NCBI GenBank assembly: GCA_013821525.1
Contig: JACDGR010000001.1
Location: forward strand, 1-43,119
Source of the DNA: Actinomycetota bacterium
Lineage (GTDB): Bacteria; Actinomycetota; Thermoleophilia; Gaiellales; Gaiellaceae
Direction of reading: 5' to 3'
Length of the DNA: 43,119 bases
Positions 1,371-22,458 of the stretch are shown piece by piece. The number at the start of each line of letters is the position of its first letter. Within the stretch, counting starts at the first letter, position 1. Both the position numbers and the translations under genes were made by a program. The notes under the pieces were generated by a model that was not told where the DNA came from, did not search any database, and saw nothing but the letters and a program-made list of their open reading frames with translations.

Positions 1371-2639
1371 TCACGAGACGGTGACCGACTTCCACGTCGA
1401 ACCGACGCGGACCCAGATCTTCGACGCGGTCGTGTCGACGACGATCGCGCCCGACGCGACGCCCTCGGGGAAGTCCGCGTCGACCGGCGTGCCCGCCTTT
1501 ACCATCGTGCAGAGGCCACCCTCGAAGTGCGTGAACATCGGCTGGTTCGACCAGCTCTTCGCAACGCTGTCCTGGACGAGTATCTCCATGAAGTCGCCGA
1601 GCACGCCAAGGAACGGACTGCCGGTCACGAACGGATCGCAGGTACCGGAGACGGCGTTGATACGGAGCGTGTTGCGCCCCGCGGTGTTCAGCACGTTGAC
1701 GCCCGACCCGCCCGCCGTGAAGTTGTTCATGAAGACACCGTTGACGGTGGCGTACGTGCAGTGGTACGTGGCGTCGCCGATCTGGATGCCGCACTCGCCA
1801 CTCACGTTGTTGCCATAGATCGTGCCGCCCGACCAGGCGCTCCCCGAGGTCAGCAGCAGGTTCGCCCTGAACGCACCCTCAGCGACGCAGTTCGAGTAGA
1901 ACGTCTGGTTCGCTGCGAACGGGTAGAAGCCGTAATGGACGCGACCCCAGACGTGGACGTTCGTAAACAACTCGCCCGCCGCGCCACCACCGCCGAGGTT
2001 GGAGCCCTTGAGGTAGACGCCGTACGCGGTCGTTCCACCGGAGGTGATCAAGGAGTCGAGCGTCTGGACGACCCCGTTGACGAAGATCGAGTCGTGCGGG
2101 CCAGACCAGTAGAGGCCGCAGCCGGATCGGAACTCGCGGATCTTGAAGTTCGACCAGTACGCCTCCATGTCGTTCCCGCCGACGCCCCACTCCGACCACG
2201 CGCCACCCGACGCGCCGTTCACGAACTCGACGTTGTTGACGCGGTAGCAGTAGCCGTAGACGCGGAACGTCCAACCGCTCGTGTTGCCGGCCTTGTTGCC
2301 GTCGAGGGTCAGGTCGCAGATCGTGAAGTGGCTGATGCCGTTCGTCGTGATCGTGCCGGTCAGGTCGGCAAAACCGACACTGGTCAGCAGATCAGCGTTC
2401 GTGCCCGACTTCAACTTGATCGTCGTCGTCGCGACGCCCGAGCCGCAAAGCGTGACCTTCGACCCGATCACGAGCGTCGAACAGAGGTACGTACCGGGTG
2501 GCAGCAGCACGATCCCGCCACTGATGGCGGCAGCGTCGAGCGCGGCCTGGATCGCGGCCGTGTCGTCCGTCACGCCGTCGCCGGTGCCCGTGTACCGAGC
2601 GACACCAGCGAGCGACGCGACCTCGATCGCTCCCGCCAT
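1371..2639 (-). CDS. Tailspike / polysaccharide depolymerase, right-handed beta-helix (pectate-lyase-3-like), paralog A
   Basis: Track ORF 1371..3059 trimmed to the internal ATG at 2639 (MAGAIEVASLAGVARYTGTGDGVTDDTAAIQAALDAAAISGGIVLLPPGTYL...). That ATG overlaps the TAA of the upstream gene (TAATG), and the 140 residues upstream are Arg-rich and look off-frame. 422 aa. Confidence 0.8.
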   Translation of the reverse strand: MAGAIEVASLAGVARYTGTGDGVTDDTAAIQAALDAAAISGGIVLLPPGTYLCSTLVIGSKVTLCGSGVATTTIKLKSGTNADLLTSVGFADLTGTITTNGISHFTICDLTLDGNKAGNTSGWTFRVYGYCYRVNNVEFVNGASGGAWSEWGVGGNDMEAYWSNFKIREFRSGCGLYWSGPHDSIFVNGVVQTLDSLITSGGTTAYGVYLKGSNLGGGGAAGELFTNVHVWGRVHYGFYPFAANQTFYSNCVAEGAFRANLLLTSGSAWSGGTIYGNNVSGECGIQIGDATYHCTYATVNGVFMNNFTAGGSGVNVLNTAGRNTLRINAVSGTCDPFVTGSPFLGVLGDFMEILVQDSVAKSWSNQPMFTHFEGGLCTMVKAGTPVDADFPEGVASGAIVVDTTASKIWVRVGSTWKSVTVS

Positions 2640-4390
2640 TAGACGAACATTCCCGGGAGGCAGGCGGTCGCCATCCTGATGTGACCCGTGTAAGACGGGT
2701 GTAGGCCGTCGATCGTGTACGGGCCGATAGTGGTGTCGGCCTTCCAGAGGCCCGAGTCGCGACTCGTCTCTACGGCGTCCGCCGCCTCGATCACGAGGTC
2801 GCAGAGGCCGCTGGCACCCGCACGGATCCACGCGTTTGCGGCTTTCCGTACCAGCCCCGCTCCGGCCGCGAGCGTCTCCGTCTGGTTGGCGACGGTCGTC
2901 CAGCCGTCCGAACTCGTCGTGCGTGGCGTGATCGTCGACATCGCGACCTTCAAGCCTCTCTGCTTCGCCCATCCGCAGATCGTGGCTGTGTCGGCCTGCC
3001 ACTGTGCGAGCGTGCGACCACCGTAGATGTCGTTTGTGCCGTACGCGTAGAGCAGCCACTTTCCGATACCGAACAGGCCCCGGCGCTGAACACCGTTCGT
3101 GTTCGCGGCGAACTGCTGAGCCGACTCACCACTCTTCGACATCGGCAGCACCGGGTGCGTCGGCTCGAGCGCGATCGTCGCGTACGACTCGAGCGTCCGA
3201 AAGTAGTTCCCCGTGCCAGACAGGATCGAATCTCCGAGCATGACGATAGACGACGGAGCGTTTGACGTGTAGTCAGCAGTAACGGCGGTCGGCACGGGGA
3301 TCACGACGGAACCACCAGAGTTCGTGTTCGCAAACGCGACTCCGCTCGCGTGGGCAATCGTGAGTGGTGCGGTGAGGTAGACCGTGTAGGGATTCGCGAC
3401 GCCCACGATCGTGCGAGCCGTTACCGTTTCAACGTTTCCAGCGGTGTCCAGCGTGAACGTCTGACCACGTAGGGGAGTCGCCGCGTTGACGACCTGCAGC
3501 GTGGTGTCACCGATGTTGGTGGCGGCAGCGAGCGTCGTAGATCCCGATACGGCTGCAACTCCGAACGTACCCGAGTAGATATCGAACGTCGAGAGGTTCG
3601 ACGATGCGGTCGCACCCTGGTCGCTCGAGATCTCGCGATTCGTCCAAACGCCCTGACCGACAACACTGCCAGCAGCGGTGTGGTTCGCGACGAGTACGGC
3701 GCGCAGCGTCGCCGTGTACGGGCTCGACGCTGTCGTCATCCTGATGATCTCTACAACCTCTGTGCCGGAACCGCCGATGCGCATTCGCAGCGGCGAGGGA
3801 CGGTCGACGGGGAGATCGGTTAGCGTGATCGACGAAGCGCCGAGCGTGACGTCGGCTGCTAGCGTGGTGTACCCGCTCGTTGGCACGAGGTTCGTCGAGT
3901 TGTTCGGCGCGAGGATCCGCGTGCGCGCGTAGTACGTCGCGCCTGCTGGTACGTCGGCAGCCACCGGGTCGCTGGTCAGCAGACCGTACCGGTCGAGTCG
4001 CCCGAACCGGTTGCCGCCGAACGTGACGGGATAGATCGTGCCCGACGGGTACTCCAGTGCCGCCTCTATAAGGACTTCGTTGTCGGGGAGAATGTCGGTG
4101 TTCGCGCCCGCCCCGTAGATGAACCGGACGCCGCTCATCGAACCGTACGCCGTGAGCGGCATCCGCCCGGCAAGGATGTTGTTGGGTGTCGCGATTCCCA
4201 GGGCGGAGCGTGCTGGCGCGGCGACTACTAGACGACCCTCGGTGACTCCGAGATCGCTCAGTACGGCCTGGCCGTTGACGAGAAGCTGGCCGCTGGTCGA
4301 CTGGAGAACCGTCTGGTTCGGCGTGTTTCCTAGGAAGATCGGCCCGCCAACGCCGACAGATCCAGAGAACTGTTCGTCCGCTTGTGCCAT
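2639..4390 (-). CDS. Tail fibre protein with C-terminal SGNH/GDSL esterase domain
   Basis: Start at the internal ATG 4390 (MAQADEQFSG...), which forms a TAATG overlap with the upstream stop. 583 aa. The C-terminal part carries SGNH blocks in order: MLGDSILSG (block I Ser), YGTNDIYGG (block III), IDGLHPSYTGH (block V, D-x-x-H). Confidence 0.8.
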   Translation of the reverse strand: MAQADEQFSGSVGVGGPIFLGNTPNQTVLQSTSGQLLVNGQAVLSDLGVTEGRLVVAAPARSALGIATPNNILAGRMPLTAYGSMSGVRFIYGAGANTDILPDNEVLIEAALEYPSGTIYPVTFGGNRFGRLDRYGLLTSDPVAADVPAGATYYARTRILAPNNSTNLVPTSGYTTLAADVTLGASSITLTDLPVDRPSPLRMRIGGSGTEVVEIIRMTTASSPYTATLRAVLVANHTAAGSVVGQGVWTNREISSDQGATASSNLSTFDIYSGTFGVAAVSGSTTLAAATNIGDTTLQVVNAATPLRGQTFTLDTAGNVETVTARTIVGVANPYTVYLTAPLTIAHASGVAFANTNSGGSVVIPVPTAVTADYTSNAPSSIVMLGDSILSGTGNYFRTLESYATIALEPTHPVLPMSKSGESAQQFAANTNGVQRRGLFGIGKWLLYAYGTNDIYGGRTLAQWQADTATICGWAKQRGLKVAMSTITPRTTSSDGWTTVANQTETLAAGAGLVRKAANAWIRAGASGLCDLVIEAADAVETSRDSGLWKADTTIGPYTIDGLHPSYTGHIRMATACLPGMFV

Positions 4391-18287: not shown

Positions 18288-18900
18288 CGGGTGCTCCGAT
18301 CGCGAGGGCATCTAAGAGGCCACATGTGCAGGTGCCGTCAATCGTTGGGTCGCGGATGTCGCAGTCGATGTTGTGGATCCACGGGTACTCCATGAACCGC
18401 TTGAGGTCGCGTTCGGCCTGCTCCGCGCGCTCCGTGGCCGCGCGACGGTCATCAATCAGCGCGAGGATCCTCCGCGTGCGCCGGGATACGACATCGAGCG
18501 CGGCGTCGGCGCGGGCCTTCTCGGCGTCACGCTCGATCCTGGCACGGTTCCGCATGCGCTGCCAATCGGCGGGCGTCGTGATGATGCCCTCGCGTTGCGC
18601 CACGGGCTTCGCGTCCACCTGGGGGGCGGCCTCGTCGTTATGGCATACATCTTCCGCAGCGTCTGCCGTGGAAGAAACTCGGCATACCTGGGCCTCGAGG
18701 GTGGCGAGGTTCCGCGTTCCGGGCTTGCGCTCTAGCGCGTCGAGCCGGCGGTTGTCGGCCTGCAGCATCTCCATGTGCTCGCGCTGCTCGTCACGCAGGG
18801 CGAGGAGTTCGCGGGCGAGGACGTACATCAGAACCTCGATCGGCCAGTCGCGACCGATCGCAGGATTCGTCGCAATCTGTTCCAGCGTCGGGTCGGTCAT
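18277..18900 (-). CDS. Hypothetical coiled-coil protein (207 aa) with C-terminal Cys cluster
   Basis: Internal ATG 18900 (MTDPTLEQIATNPAIG...) overlaps the methyltransferase TGA (ATGA). Long Arg/Glu/Ala helical regions. The C-terminus is IDCDIRDPTIDGTCTCG. Confidence 0.6.
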   Translation of the reverse strand: MTDPTLEQIATNPAIGRDWPIEVLMYVLARELLALRDEQREHMEMLQADNRRLDALERKPGTRNLATLEAQVCRVSSTADAAEDVCHNDEAAPQVDAKPVAQREGIITTPADWQRMRNRARIERDAEKARADAALDVVSRRTRRILALIDDRRAATERAEQAERDLKRFMEYPWIHNIDCDIRDPTIDGTCTCGLLDALAIGAPDAH

Positions 18901-19877
18901 CGGTGTGCCTCCAGGAGCGTGAGTTGCTGCAACCGCTTCGCCGCGATCGCGATGTACTCGCTGTTCAACTCGATGCCGACCGCGTGGCGTCCGAGACGAC
19001 GCGCAACAAGCGCCGTCGTGCCGCTGCCCATAAACGGGTCGAGGATCGTGTCGCCCTCGCGGCTGCCCGCCTTGACGCATTTTTCGACGAGTGCCTGCGG
19101 GAATGTTGCAAAGTGTGCGAAAGACGTGGGTTCCGTAGATATGGACCACACGGAACGAGCGTTACGGGCTGCCGGGACCTCACCGGTGAATCTCACGCCG
19201 CCGCGCACCGTGGACTCGTCGTGACCGTCCTTTCGACTGGTGGCCGTCACCCCGGCGAACAGCGAAGCCTCCCGGATCGCGTCCGAATCGTAAAAGTACC
19301 GCGCGCTCTTCGTCATCAAAAAGACATACGAGTGGGCCTTCGTTGGCCTGTCCGTCACGCTCTCGGGCATCGGGTTCGGCCGCGCCCAGATCGTGTCGCT
19401 CCTGAGATACCAGCCGTCCGCGCGCAGGGCGAAGGCGAGCATCCAGGGAGCGCCGACGAGGTCTTTGGGCTTGAGGCCTGCGAGGTTTCGTGGCGCTCGG
19501 TTGCGACCGTTTTCGATGTGCGCGGTCTGCGCGGGCCCGCTTGATATCCGAAATCTGCCGGCACCGTTACCGCCCTCGGCGCGTGGGATCGTGTTACCGG
19601 CTGGCGTGGCGTTGTACGTGTCGCCGCATTCGAGCCACATCACGCCGTCCGACCGGAGTACGCGGCGTGCTTCGCGGAACACGGCGACGAGGCGCGCACA
19701 CCACTCGTCGGGCGTGTCCTCGAGTCCTATCTGACCCTCGCAACCATAGTCCCGCAACCCCCAAAAAGGCGGGCTCGTGACGATGCACTGCACCGATTCG
19801 TCGGGCATCTCGCGCAGGCGCTCGAGGGCGTCGCCTTGGACGATGCGGACGTCGTGGTCGTTGATCATCGACGTCAT
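18897..19877 (-). CDS. Beta-class DNA amino-methyltransferase, SPPF type (predicted N4-cytosine; N6-adenine not excluded)
   Basis: Internal ATG 19877 (MTSMINDHDVRIVQGDAL...), TGATG overlap with the upstream stop. Motif IV IVTSPPFWGLRDY precedes motif I ILDPFMGSGTTALVA, which is the beta-class order. 326 aa. Confidence 0.8.
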   Translation of the reverse strand: MTSMINDHDVRIVQGDALERLREMPDESVQCIVTSPPFWGLRDYGCEGQIGLEDTPDEWCARLVAVFREARRVLRSDGVMWLECGDTYNATPAGNTIPRAEGGNGAGRFRISSGPAQTAHIENGRNRAPRNLAGLKPKDLVGAPWMLAFALRADGWYLRSDTIWARPNPMPESVTDRPTKAHSYVFLMTKSARYFYDSDAIREASLFAGVTATSRKDGHDESTVRGGVRFTGEVPAARNARSVWSISTEPTSFAHFATFPQALVEKCVKAGSREGDTILDPFMGSGTTALVARRLGRHAVGIELNSEYIAIAAKRLQQLTLLEAHR

Positions 19878-20362
19878 CAGCGCACCCCTGTGATGCTCGA
19901 GCACGACCATTCGCGCCAAGACCCATCGCGGCGCACGAGTTGTGCGGCGGCGAGCGAGTTCGCGACGGGGTCGAACACGTCGAAGCTGGCGAATGGTGTG
20001 CGGCGCCACGTCGAGCCGAGGAACTGGAAGACGCCGCTTGCGCCGCTGCCGGCTTCGGCGGTGACTTGCGCGCCCATGCCGGATTCGCAGCGGGCGATCG
20101 TGCGCATCTCGTGTTCGGGTACGCCGAACGCGGCGGCGGCGAGGCGGATGGCGTAGGTGGCGTCACGCTGGTAGCGCACCGCGAGCCGGTGGCGCAGCAC
20201 CTGTCGTTCGTGCTTCGCCCACGCGAGGTCGTGATGGCACTGCTTGACGCTCGCGCATTTCGACGCCGGCCACGCTTCCGTGACGCCCCACGCGGCGCTC
20301 GCCCAGAAGACGACGCACGCGGCGAACAACGCGAACCAGACGAGGGGGGTAGGGAGGGTCAC
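19877..20362 (-). CDS. Membrane-anchored lytic transglycosylase-like protein (SLT-type domain)
   Basis: N-terminal hydrophobic segment LVWFALFAACVVFWASAAWGV, then IARCESGMGAQVTAEAGSGASGVFQFLGSTW (the E-S ... G.FQ...TW signature). GTG 20362 overlaps a TGA at 20359 (GTGA). The longest-ORF start is 20404. Confidence 0.7.
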   Translation of the reverse strand: MTLPTPLVWFALFAACVVFWASAAWGVTEAWPASKCASVKQCHHDLAWAKHERQVLRHRLAVRYQRDATYAIRLAAAAFGVPEHEMRTIARCESGMGAQVTAEAGSGASGVFQFLGSTWRRTPFASFDVFDPVANSLAAAQLVRRDGSWREWSCSSITGVR

Positions 20363-21158
20363 GCTGCCATCTCCATCACGAGGCGTCCGATGTGTTCGGC
20401 GCATTGGGGGACGACGGCGTTACCGAGGGACTTGAGTCTGTCCACCCGCTCGGGAACCCCATGAGCCATTCGACCCACGTCGGGTTCAGGGGTCCAAGTC
20501 CAACCGCCTCGTTTAGCGTCGGGCCACCTGCTCCCGGTCGTGTCGCTCTCTTTGTGTCCGTCTGTCCGCGCTCCCCGTCGCCCGCTCGCGAGGCGTAGGC
20601 CAGCGCAGCGCCATCTTCCGCAGCCCGCCCTCGTTTGGCCGATCCTTCCCCTTCGATCCGCGGGACCCGTTCGCATCCCCCGCAAGCGGCGTCGGCAGCA
20701 ACGATCCAGACGCGATCGCGCTTGTGGGGTGCGCCAACGTCCCGGGCGCCGAACACTGTCCATTCCGCATCGAACCCGAGCGCGGCAAGGTCAGCGAGCA
20801 CGAGGTCGAGTCCTCGAGTAAGGAGCCCTGGGACGTTCTCAGCGATGACGTAGCGGGGTCGAAGTACGCGAATGCATCGGGCGAACTCGGGCCAGAGCCA
20901 TCGTTCGTCGGCTTGTGCGAGTCCTTTGCCGGCGAGGCTGACGGGCTGGCAGGGGAATCCCCCGGCGAGCACGTCGACGCGGGGGGTGTCGGCGTCGATG
21001 GTGCGGATGTCGCCGTACTGGGGGGTGTCGGGCCAGTGGCGGGCGAGGATGCCTCGGCACCACGGGTCGATTTCGCACTGCCACGAGACGCGCATCCCGG
21101 CTCGCTCGAGGCCAAGGTCGATGCCGCCGATGCCGGAGAAGAGGCTGCCGACATTCAC
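20359..21158 (-). CDS. dcm: DNA (cytosine-5) methyltransferase whose conserved motifs are split between reading frames (frameshifted or disrupted)
   Basis: The frame of track ORF 20376..21212 has motif I LFSGIGG, motif IV GGFPCQ, motif VI AENVPGLL and motif VIII APHKRDRVWIVA. Motif X (LGNAVVPQCAEHIGRLV) sits in the -1 frame that ends at 20359. GTG 21158 overlaps the upstream TGA. The 800-nt span equals 3n-1, consistent with a net -1 shift. Confidence 0.75.
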
Positions 21159-21447: not shown

Positions 21448-22458
21448 GTGAGTAGCGTTTTTATCGTCAAGCGTGAGCTTGAGATCACTGAGAAGCACCC
21501 CGAGCAACGCTTTCGATTCGTCGTCCGCTGGTCGGAGGGCCGCGCGTACAAGGCGAAGCACCTCGGCTCGTACCCGACTCGCAAACTCGCGGAGACCCGC
21601 CAGCGGGCGGTGCTCGAGCAACTCGCGCGTGGCGAAGTTCCGACCCTGCGGATCCTGCCCGCCACGCGCCACGCGACGACCACGACGCGGATCCTCTGCG
21701 AGCGTTGGTTCGAAACCCGCGTGGACGTGAAGGACACGACGCGGGCGAACTTCCGCAACTCGATCAAGAACATCGTCGAGCGCTGGGGTGACGACGACCC
21801 CCACACGATCAGCAGCGAGGACGTGCAGGCGTGGGTCGCGGATCAGACCGCCGCGAAGAAGAGTCCCGGCACGATCAAGAACCGCCTCGGCTGCCTCTCG
21901 CAGATCCTCGCGTACGGCAAGGTTGAACCGAACCCCGTGCGGGACGTGAAGCTGCCGAAAGGGAAGCGCCGCAAGAGCGCCCTGCCATCCAGGGCCGAGC
22001 TCGCCCGCATGTACGCCGTCCTCCCGGAGAAGAACCGGGGTGTCGTCGCGCTGATGGAGCACGGCGGGCTGCGCGTCTCGTCTGCTGTTGCCGTGACGTG
22101 GGGTGACTGGGATCGCCCACGCCGCCGCCTGCTGGTGAACGACAAGACGGCAGCCGGCGAACGTTGGATCACCCAGATCGACGGTCTGCCCGTGATGCCC
22201 GAACGCCCCGACGGGGTTGCGGATGATGCGCGCGTGCATCAGAACGTGACGGCGAAGAGCGTCCACGCGGCGATGGTGCAGGCGTGCAAGCAGGCGGGCA
22301 TCCGACGGGTGACGCCTCATAGCCTCCGCCATTTGCACGCTTCGCGGCTGATGCACGAGATGGCGATGAGTCCCGCCGAGGTCGCCGTCCGCATGGGGCA
22401 CGCGAGCCCGTCGACCACGATCGCGCTCTATACGCACCTCGTGCCGCCGGAAGGGTAG
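21448..22458 (+). CDS. int: Tyrosine integrase
   Basis: 336 aa. The C-terminal catalytic signature is in order: GGLRVSSAVAVTWGD (Arg), HSLRHLHASRL (H-x-x-R), GHASPSTTIALYTH (His and Tyr nucleophile). It is one of only two + strand genes. Confidence 0.9.
   Translation: MSSVFIVKRELEITEKHPEQRFRFVVRWSEGRAYKAKHLGSYPTRKLAETRQRAVLEQLARGEVPTLRILPATRHATTTTRILCERWFETRVDVKDTTRANFRNSIKNIVERWGDDDPHTISSEDVQAWVADQTAAKKSPGTIKNRLGCLSQILAYGKVEPNPVRDVKLPKGKRRKSALPSRAELARMYAVLPEKNRGVVALMEHGGLRVSSAVAVTWGDWDRPRRRLLVNDKTAAGERWITQIDGLPVMPERPDGVADDARVHQNVTAKSVHAAMVQACKQAGIRRVTPHSLRHLHASRLMHEMAMSPAEVAVRMGHASPSTTIALYTHLVPPEG

What the first reader, a model, noticed from the sequence alone, without database searches (positions are those of the whole stretch)
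20359..21158. Cytosine-5 methyltransferase whose conserved motifs are distributed over two, possibly three, reading frames
- **Main frame.** The frame that starts the gene carries motifs I, IV, VI and VIII (LFSGIGG, GGFPCQ, AENVPGLL, APHKRDRVWIVA). It ends at 20376 in a Ser/Pro-rich tail (…GWTDSSPSVTPSSPNAPNTSDAS).
- **The -1 frame.** The canonical C-terminus of phage Dcm enzymes (…EPDVGRMAHGVPERVDRLKSLGNAVVPQCAEHIGRLV) is encoded in the -1 frame, which ends at 20359. Its TGA overlaps the GTG of the next gene (GTGA), the standard coupling in this genome. The main-frame stop has no such coupling.
- **The third frame.** Between about 20590 and 20710 the third frame reads SLLPTPLAGDANGSRGS...RWPTPR. 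This resembles the LLPTP/WPTP target-recognition repeats of this enzyme family.
- **Length.** The 21158..20359 span is 800 nt (3n-1), as a net -1 shift would require.

Possible explanations are a decaying pseudogene, assembly indels, or recoding. A caveat applies: in GC-rich DNA all three frames stay open, and the PTP-type matches could be chance.
Basis: partly seen in the sequence, partly recalled or inferred. Interest (0 to 1): 0.6.

Follow-up and report, generated by a model that had tools for sequence, protein, structure and literature searches.

The report
Two-frame phage cytosine methylase, frameshifted copy
This phage DNA cytosine methyltransferase belongs to a large family that is normally written in two overlapping reading frames, and in this copy a two-base insertion has knocked both frames out of register, which is why its motifs appear in three frames; it is most likely a recently broken gene, not recoding.

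Summary
On the minus strand, motifs I-VIII lie in frame A (21158..20712). A proximal LLPTP/WPTP recognition segment lies in frame B (20701..20591). The distal recognition segment plus motif IX is back in frame A (20588..20442). Motif X lies in frame C (20427..20404).

Two of the three frames are normal for the family. In 55 distinct related loci, including an intact paralog in the same genome, motifs I-VIII and X share one frame (alpha). The recognition domain and motif IX sit in the +1 frame (beta). Wobble-position diversity, GC3 and stop-codon depletion all show selection switching 0/+1/0. This is the layout proven for M.EcoHK31I, a two-polypeptide enzyme with beta nested in another frame of alpha. 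This scan has already noted it in at least 137 other genomes, including other frameshifted copies.

The third frame comes from one lesion. At 20590..20580, 11 nt stand where the PTP-x-A-x-D repeat needs 9. PHROG profiles for alpha (phrog_363) and beta (phrog_1008) are each split across two frames there.

Both chains are truncated or chimeric, so the enzyme is probably inactive. All motifs are intact and both read-through frames are open, so the break is recent or an assembly error. No slippery site supports recoding.

The parts
20712..21158 (-). Frame A: alpha chain, start GTG 21158 (overlaps the TGA of the upstream 83-aa ORF, GTGA), motifs I, IV, VI and VIII of a C5 cytosine methyltransferase
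   Evidence: Pfam PF00145 E 2.5e-40, profile 2-162. phrog_363 positions 54-239, E 4.7e-69. tblastn of Che9d gp80 and MoxS-R1 gp29 starts at 21158. Motif coordinates.
20591..21154 (-). Frame B (+1): beta chain up to the break. ATG 21154 lies 4 nt after the alpha GTG and directly after the upstream stop (GTGAATG). The proximal recognition repeats LLPTP...RWPTP lie at 20701-20591.
   Evidence: phrog_1008 positions 27-182, E 1.2e-19. Beta-frame proteins of relatives align here in frame B as far as 20591. GC3 is highest in frame B (0.81) over 20700-20591.
20580..20590 (-). The lesion: 11 nt (cgcgagcgggc) between WPTP and DGERG, where the family repeat P-T-P-x-A-x-D needs 9. Most simply a 2-nt insertion, possibly a CG duplication at 20590-20587. 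Net shift -1.
   Evidence: Skipping 20590-20589 gives WPTPRAGDGERG, which matches WPTPTASDATGG / WPTPVAKDGARGG in relatives. The frame B to frame A switch of beta homologues and the frame A to frame C switch of alpha homologues both map here.
20376..20588 (-). Frame A after the break: the displaced beta chain. It holds the distal recognition segment (RAGDGERG...TLNEAV), motif IX VEWLMGFPSGW (20474-20442) and the usual beta tail SVTPSSPNAPNTSDAS, with TGA at 20376.
   Evidence: phrog_1008 positions 239-283, E 2.1e-8. Beta proteins of relatives match at 52-57% identity, E 1e-24 to 1e-26. The tail is the +1 shadow of motif X, as in more than 1000 database beta-frame proteins.
20359..20589 (-). 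Frame C after the break: the displaced alpha chain. It holds the linker, then RMAHGVPERVDRL and motif X LGNAVVPQ (20427-20404) and the C-terminal helix. TGA 20359-20361 overlaps the GTG of the next gene.
   Evidence: phrog_363 positions 221-315, E 1.1e-10, and phrog_32758, E 1.2e-14. tblastn of intact homologues E about 1e-15. GC3 is highest in frame C (0.80) over 20436-20362.
20513..20590 (-). Frame B after the break: non-coding third frame (RERATGSADRRTQRERHDREQVARR), ending at TAA 20513
   Evidence: No homologue matches it. The third frame carries stops at the chance rate in relatives (135 observed, 137 expected).

Best explanation
The gene belongs to a large phage and prophage family of C5 cytosine methyltransferases written in two overlapping frames.

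- The alpha frame encodes motifs I-VIII, a non-conserved linker, and motif X.
- The +1 (beta) frame is often open from near the alpha start. It encodes the PTP-repeat target-recognition region and motif IX.
- By analogy with M.EcoHK31I, the two products are separate chains that assemble into one enzyme. This step is inferred, not shown here.

In this copy, 2 extra nucleotides (net -1) at 20590..20580, inside the second PTP repeat, shift everything downstream by one frame.

- The alpha chain (frame A) now runs into the distal half of beta and stops at beta's stop without motif X.
- The beta chain (frame B) loses its distal recognition half and motif IX, and stops at 20513.
- Motif X is stranded in frame C.

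The enzyme is therefore most likely inactive. All catalytic motifs are intact, and both chains would be open end to end if the 2 nt were skipped. So the lesion is recent, or less likely an assembly error.
For: Family layout:
- The regex census found VIII in frame 0, IX in +1 and X in frame 0, with X 15-17 codons after IX, in 66 loci (55 distinct). These include isolate genomes and genes annotated as 'intact'.
- In 35 short-form genes, nucleotide diversity peaks at alpha codon position 3 over nt 0-450, at alpha position 1 (the beta wobble position) over nt 450-630, and at position 3 again from nt 630.
- Pooled GC by alpha codon position is 0.76/0.52/0.76 (I-VIII), 0.81/0.64/0.63 (TRD-IX) and 0.79/0.45/0.80 (X).
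- The alpha frame over the beta-coded stretch has 0 stops against 65.9 expected. The third frame has 135 against 137. The beta frame over I-VIII has 49 against 131.
- The low-GC Acinetobacter phage ABMM1 has both frames open for about 300 codons.
- The beta frame has at least 1219 database homologues and its own PHROG family, phrog_1008.
- M.EcoHK31I precedent: beta lies in another frame within alpha, and both chains are needed (PMC2836561; PMC3404938).

The lesion:
- The intact paralog G000:C513 (77% nt identity) has alpha as one 317-aa ORF and beta as one 306-aa ORF. The IX/X offset is identical in both copies.
- In the window, phrog_363 is split between frames A and C, and phrog_1008 between frames B and A, at the same place.
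- Beta homologues switch from frame B to frame A at 20591/20585.
- Skipping 2 nt restores the canonical PTPxAxD spacing.

Assembly quality:
- The long ORFs of the contig are intact, up to 1218 aa.
Against: - No reads are available, so an assembly or consensus indel in this 545-contig draft cannot be excluded.
- No relative closer than the 77% paralog was found to date the lesion.
- The two-chain mechanism is inferred from M.EcoHK31I and from selection signatures. No protein evidence exists for this family here.
- Sequence homology of M.EcoHK31I to this family was not tested.
- GC3 over the distal TRD of the window itself is uninformative: A 0.68, B 0.69, C 0.65.
- C5 methyltransferase fragments can complement each other, so residual activity of the pieces is not strictly excluded.
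Confidence: 0.78

Rival explanations
1. Assembly or consensus error. The real phage has 9 nt at 20590..20580 and an intact two-frame gene. The 2 extra bases are an artefact of a draft or metagenome assembly.
For: The genome is a 545-contig draft. All motifs are intact and both read-through frames are fully open, as expected if nothing is really broken.
Against: Other long ORFs on the contig are uninterrupted: 1218, 813, 733, 634 and 599 aa. A 2-nt insertion outside a homopolymer is an unusual assembly error. Independent natural frameshifted copies exist in isolate genomes and cultured phages: L017, and Llama and relatives.
Confidence: 0.17
2. Programmed recoding. Ribosomes shift frames (A to B, B to A, A to C) to make one canonical chain carrying motifs I-X.
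For: Conserved motifs lie in an order that, if joined, would give a canonical C5 methyltransferase. The frame C stop is coupled to the next gene.
Against: - No X_XXY_YYZ heptamer lies between IX and X in any of 55 relatives, and I saw none in the window by eye.
- In relatives, the alpha frame is kept stop-free through the beta-coded region (0 stops against 65.9 expected), and the beta frame is stop-depleted upstream. A frameshifting model does not need either.
- The B to A change at 20590 is absent from the paralog and from every canonical relative.
- M.EcoHK31I works as two separately expressed chains.
Confidence: 0.02
3. The three pieces are a functional multi-chain enzyme. The pieces would be frame A (I-VIII + distal TRD + IX), a frame C product with motif X, and a frame B product with the proximal TRD.
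For: C5 methyltransferases tolerate splitting: M.AquI, M.EcoHK31I, and fragment complementation of M.HhaI, M.BspRI and M.SssI. Amycolatopsis deserti (L017) shows the same frame pattern.
Against: - The pattern is what any net -1 indel in the TRD produces. L017 is broken at a different place.
- Only the window and L017, among all loci examined, put IX in the frame of I-VIII; none of the 55 canonical ones does.
- The frame C ORF starts in non-coding third-frame sequence with no conserved start.
- The first PTP repeat would be separated from the second.
Confidence: 0.03

Closest known systems
M.EcoHK31I (E. coli HK31, YGGCCR; Lee, Kam and Shaw 1995, as described in PMC2836561 and PMC3404938)
   Same: Both are C5 methyltransferases made of two chains from one stretch of DNA. 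Alpha carries motifs I-VIII and X. Beta carries motif IX and is encoded in another reading frame inside the alpha gene. The family of the window gene has exactly this motif-to-frame assignment.
   Different: - In this family the beta frame also carries the conserved PTP-repeat recognition region. The alpha 'variable region' is non-conserved filler. For M.EcoHK31I the literature places the TRD in alpha.
- Beta here is often nearly as long as alpha, with a median of about 215 codons.
- The window copy is additionally frameshifted, so neither chain is whole.
- Sequence homology to M.EcoHK31I itself was not tested.
M.AquI (CYCGRG), a two-subunit C5 methyltransferase
   Same: The split falls in the variable region, and two chains assemble. 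Mycobacteriophages Pioneer and 40AC in this family have this form: alpha stops after VIII, and the +1 ORF carries TRD, IX and X.
   Different: In the window and most relatives, motif X stays in the alpha frame and only TRD + IX are in the second frame. The ORFs are nested, not consecutive.
Frameshifted copies of the same two-frame family noted earlier by this scan (e1-5899535, e1-138390), and phage Llama gp74/gp75
   Same: A single indel in a dual-coded methyltransferase gene disrupts both overlapping chains at once.
   Different: The positions and types of lesion differ: one extra base, a G10 run, and for Llama a shift at about residue 122 of alpha. Here it is 2 nt inside the second PTP repeat.

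Membership tests
C5 cytosine DNA methyltransferase (Pfam PF00145) | Motifs I (FxGxG), IV (PCQ with the catalytic Cys), VI (ENV) and VIII (RxR) in one chain | tested here: met
   LFSGIGG, GGFPCQ, ENVPGL and APHKRDR are all in frame A. PF00145 E 2.5e-40.
C5 cytosine DNA methyltransferase (Pfam PF00145) | Motifs IX and X present and joined to the catalytic domain, in the same chain or in an assembling partner | tested here: inconclusive
   IX (VEWLMGFPSGW, frame A) and X (LGNAVVPQ, frame C) are both present and intact. However, X is not connected to any chain that has a family-type start.
M.EcoHK31I-type two-frame alpha/beta methyltransferase | Motif IX encoded in a different frame from motif X, nested in the alpha gene | tested here: met
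   IX is +1 relative to X in the window, in the paralog and in 55 distinct relatives, with the same 15-17 codon spacing.
M.EcoHK31I-type two-frame alpha/beta methyltransferase | One uninterrupted alpha ORF carrying motifs I-VIII and X | tested here: not met
   Met in the paralog (317-aa ORF, phrog_363 51-315 in one stretch). In the window, phrog_363 is split between frame A (54-239) and frame C (221-315).
M.EcoHK31I-type two-frame alpha/beta methyltransferase | One uninterrupted beta ORF under its own purifying selection | tested here: not met
   Selection on the beta frame is shown in relatives. In the window, phrog_1008 is split between frame B (27-182) and frame A (239-283).
M.EcoHK31I-type two-frame alpha/beta methyltransferase | Both polypeptides made and both required for methylation | not testable with these tools
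   Known only for M.EcoHK31I (PMC2836561). It needs expression and methylation assays.
M.EcoHK31I-type two-frame alpha/beta methyltransferase | Sequence homology to M.EcoHK31I alpha and beta | not tested
   No M.EcoHK31I sequence was on hand, and the 1995 paper (PMC306636) is not held.
Programmed -1 ribosomal frameshift site | Slippery X_XXY_YYZ heptamer at the frame junction, conserved among relatives | tested here: not met
   0 of 55 relatives have one between IX and X. I saw none in the window's IX-X interval by eye.
M.AquI-type consecutive two-subunit methyltransferase | The second ORF carries both motifs IX and X | tested here: not met
   In the window, IX and X are in different frames. 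The form exists in Pioneer, 40AC, L067 and L131.

The most novel reading that the evidence does not exclude
The three-frame state may not be dead. The frame A product (catalytic domain fused to the distal recognition half and motif IX), a small frame C product carrying motif X, and the frame B product carrying the proximal repeat could assemble into an active enzyme. Its specificity might be altered. A single indel in a dual-coded gene would then be a one-step route to re-partitioning a methyltransferase among chains.
Probability: 0.04. Interest if true: 0.6.

Novelty: new member of a known kind. Interest (0 to 1): 0.3.

Why it matters
For this window it matters little. The odd three-frame picture reduces to a known layout plus one ordinary indel, and the phage probably lacks a working Dcm from this gene. 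A related intact copy sits elsewhere in the same genome.

The case has two uses:
- It shows that a dual-coded gene is a double target. One indel disables both chains and creates a confusing three-frame signature that annotation pipelines will call as a truncated methylase plus hypothetical ORFs.
- It adds independent evidence that the two-frame alpha/beta design is the rule in a very large phage methyltransferase family. In print the design is known for the single enzyme M.EcoHK31I. Here, wobble-phase switching, GC3 and stop depletion across 55 loci all support it. The scan has already flagged this repeatedly on other DNA, so it is not new to the scan.

Tried and rejected
- **Classical single-frame Dcm with two or three decay frameshifts.** Rejected. 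Intact relatives and the same-genome paralog share the IX/X frame offset.
- **Off-frame matches as chance or as a mere 'shadow' of alpha conservation.** Rejected on three grounds: the wobble-phase switch, GC3, and beta-synonymous variation that changes the alpha residue (CTN Leu against D/H/Y/N).
- **Recoding.** No slippery heptamers were found.
- **Structure of the beta chain alone, with a 79-sequence alignment.** Mean pLDDT was 60.5 and pTM 0.25. This was too poor for a fold search, so none was run.
- **Profile search of beta against PDB sequences.** Nothing significant; best E 0.13, spurious.
- **Search for near-identical copies to see the un-inserted allele.** No exact match to the flanks in metagenome or IMG/VR contigs. 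Nothing closer than 69% was found in 200 genomes of the same family.
- **The look-up of encoding contigs.** The DNA behind the database beta proteins was reached through the search for related loci instead.
- **Literature searches for a published family-wide description.** Only the M.EcoHK31I and M.AquI papers were found. The 1995 paper itself is not held.

Full report
**What is in the sequence**

The gene lies on the minus strand of a 43-kb contig. The contig is a complete contig (C304) of a 3.63-Mb, 545-contig draft genome. It is a temperate SU10-like podophage or prophage. It carries an SU10 major capsid protein and adaptor, pectate-lyase-type tailspikes, an integrase at 21448..22458, and an SLT/NlpC-P60 lysin.

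- Frame A starts at GTG 21158. This start overlaps the TGA of the upstream 83-aa ORF. Frame A carries motifs I, IV, VI and VIII and ends at 20376.
- Frame C ends at 20359, coupled by GTGA to the next gene. It carries RMAHGVPERVDRL...LGNAVVPQ.
- Frame B starts at ATG 21154, 4 nt after the alpha GTG. It carries LLPTP...RWPTP and stops at 20513.

This is a textbook motif IX, on the very nucleotides that read RMAHGVPERVDRL in frame C.

**Frameshift-aware comparison**

Intact phage homologues were Che9d gp80, MoxS-R1 gp29 and a Manatee Spring phage. They align to frame A for about 160 residues and to frame C for the last 50 or so (E about 1e-15). So the N- and C-termini really are out of frame here.

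**The same-genome paralog changes the baseline**

Contig C513 of the same genome carries a 77%-identical copy. It is one uninterrupted 317-aa ORF from motif I to motif X. Yet its +1 frame is open for 306 codons and reads LPTPTAS, WPTPKARDAKGG, WPTPTATDAHGG, TLNDAV and LNPRWVEWLMGFPVGW. Over the same stretch the annotated frame is Arg/Gly/Pro-rich filler.

A nucleotide alignment shows that the window and the paralog are collinear from motif IX to the stop. The offset between IX and X is therefore not an error of the window.

**The two-frame layout is a family rule**

tblastn with the paralog's +1 ORF hits 250 phage records, always +1 relative to the catalytic domain. Examples:
- The Acinetobacter phage ABMM1 locus (about 50% GC over the gene) keeps both frames open for about 300 codons.
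- Streptomyces phage Darolandstone gp38 has its PTP repeats in +1.
- Mycobacteriophages Pioneer and 40AC have an alpha that stops after VIII and a +1 ORF with TRD, IX and X. These are annotated as two 'DNA methylase' genes.

I fetched 160 loci by the alpha N-terminus.
- **Census.** 66 loci (55 distinct) show VIII in frame 0, IX in +1 and X in frame 0, with X 15-17 codons after IX. They include isolate genomes of Prauserella, Micromonospora, Lentzea and Longispora.
- **Diversity by codon position.** In 35 short-form genes, per-column diversity is greatest at alpha codon position 3 over nt 0-450. It is greatest at alpha position 1, which is the beta wobble position, over nt 450-630. It returns to position 3 from nt 630.
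- **GC by codon position.** Pooled GC switches in the same way: 0.76/0.52/0.76, then 0.81/0.64/0.63, then 0.79/0.45/0.80.
- **Stop codons under synonymous-codon permutation**. The alpha frame across the beta-coded stretch has 0 stops against 65.9 expected. The third frame has 135 against 137. The beta frame across motifs I-VIII has 49 against 131.
- **Beta-synonymous variation.** Within motif IX the Leu codon varies CTG/CTC/CTT/CTA, which changes the alpha residue among D, H, Y and N.
- **Database presence.** The beta frame has at least 1219 homologues in the protein database. All of these that I read (10 fetched) end ...EWLMGFPxGWTDxxxSATPSS, and the tail is the +1 shadow of LGNAVVPQ. It also has its own PHROG family, phrog_1008. 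Alpha is phrog_363.

**Mechanism**

The motif-to-frame assignment is that of M.EcoHK31I. There, alpha (I-VIII, X) and beta (IX) are separate chains, and beta is encoded in another frame wholly inside alpha. Both are needed, and they work when expressed from separate plasmids (PMC2836561; PMC3404938).

Two observations argue for two chains and against double ribosomal frameshifting:
- The alpha frame is kept open through the beta-coded region, and the beta frame is stop-depleted far upstream.
- No X_XXY_YYZ heptamer lies between IX and X in any of 55 loci.

The two-chain step is still inferred for this family, not shown.

**What is abnormal in the window**

Family members have IX in +1 and X in frame 0 relative to VIII. 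The window has IX in frame 0 and X in -1. So one net -1 change lies between VIII and IX.
- Beta-frame proteins of relatives align to frame B down to 20591 and to frame A from about 20585.
- phrog_1008 is split between frame B (profile 27-182) and frame A (239-283). phrog_363 is split between frame A (54-239) and frame C (221-315).
- Between WPTP (ending at 20591) and DGERG there are 11 nt (cgcgagcgggc, 20590-20580), where the repeat P-T-P-x-A-x-D needs 9.
- Skipping 20590-20589 gives WPTPRAGDGERG. This matches WPTPTASDATGG and WPTPVAKDGARGG in relatives.

One 2-nt insertion therefore explains everything:
- Alpha runs into distal beta and stops without motif X.
- Beta loses its distal half and motif IX.
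- Motif X is stranded in frame C.

**Real or artefact, old or recent**

All motifs are intact and both read-through chains would be open end to end. The event is therefore recent or artefactual. The contig's long ORFs, up to 1218 aa, are uninterrupted, which argues against a generally indel-prone assembly.

No closer relative than the paralog was found, so the allele state cannot be compared.

Independent natural breaks of the same family exist:
- Amycolatopsis deserti (L017) has the same three-frame pattern from an indel elsewhere in the TRD.
- An IMG/VR contig (L161) has a frameshifting repeat duplication.
- Llama-type cluster F phages are shifted at about residue 122, where Che9d is intact.

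**Relation to earlier notes of the scan**

I reached the M.EcoHK31I reading first. I then found that the scan holds 140 notes in at least 137 genomes on this two-frame layout. Two are on frameshifted copies, e1-5899535 and e1-138390. My tests on independent loci agree with them.

**Verdict**

The gene is a broken member of a known kind and is of modest interest in itself.

Noticed in passing
L017 (Amycolatopsis deserti CGMCC 4.7677, NZ_BNAU01000001.1), locus positions about 2500-3400: An independent copy with the same three-frame signature: I-VIII and IX in frame 0, the first WPTP repeat in +1, and motif X in +2. It is broken at a different point in the recognition region.
   Followed up: partly
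L182 and proteins P0045, P0097, P0105, P0111: In this subfamily, motif I (LFSGIGG) is in frame with the beta chain (TRD + IX), joined through a conserved GIVGLNALLKKxRT segment. Motifs IV-VIII and X lie in the other frame behind their own ATG. The AdoMet-binding motif and the catalytic Cys would then be on different chains. The feature is conserved across 5 diverged sequences, so it is not a one-off error.
   Followed up: partly
L031 and L155 (Blastococcus mobilis DSM 44272 and an IMG/VR contig): Motifs IX and X are fused into one frame (EWLMGFPPG-VDRRRALGNAVVPQ), +1 relative to I-VIII, while the alpha frame runs on for 399 codons. This is another natural re-partitioning of the same gene.
   Followed up: no
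L001 (Mycobacterium phage Llama gp74/gp75), with Ochi17, Seabastian, OfUltron, Jinglebell and Modragons: Cluster F phages carry a frameshift at about residue 122 of alpha relative to Che9d gp80. The result is annotated as two 'DNA methylase' genes. All downstream frames are shifted together.
   Followed up: partly
About 30 of the 55 related loci, alpha codon 42 after motif I: A beta-frame ATG is created by the alpha sequence H-D-D using the rare GAT codon (cAC GAT GAC read as ACG ATG AC). It may be a conserved internal start for beta. In the window and the paralog, beta instead starts 4-5 nt from the alpha start (GTGAATG, GTGATATG).
   Followed up: partly
G000 contig C513 (L006 1-3427): A second phage-like module in the same genome has the same order: a divergent integrase, an SLT-like gene, the two-frame Dcm (intact), then an MT-A70-type DPPW methyltransferase. 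The window has an SPPF N6_N4 methyltransferase in that position. A short withheld N run interrupts the MT-A70 gene.
   Followed up: no
window 18897-20404: Downstream of the Dcm gene lie a membrane-anchored SLT/transglycosylase-like gene (GTG 20362, coupled by GTGA) and an N6_N4_Mtase gene (PF01555, E 1.9e-48, TSPPF motif). All are start/stop-coupled in one leftward operon facing the integrase.
   Followed up: partly
L161 (IMG/VR 3300025282_003990): A tandem duplication of the repeat PTPTSRDWKDT(R/Q)GMS puts the two copies in different frames. This is another frameshifted family member.
   Followed up: no
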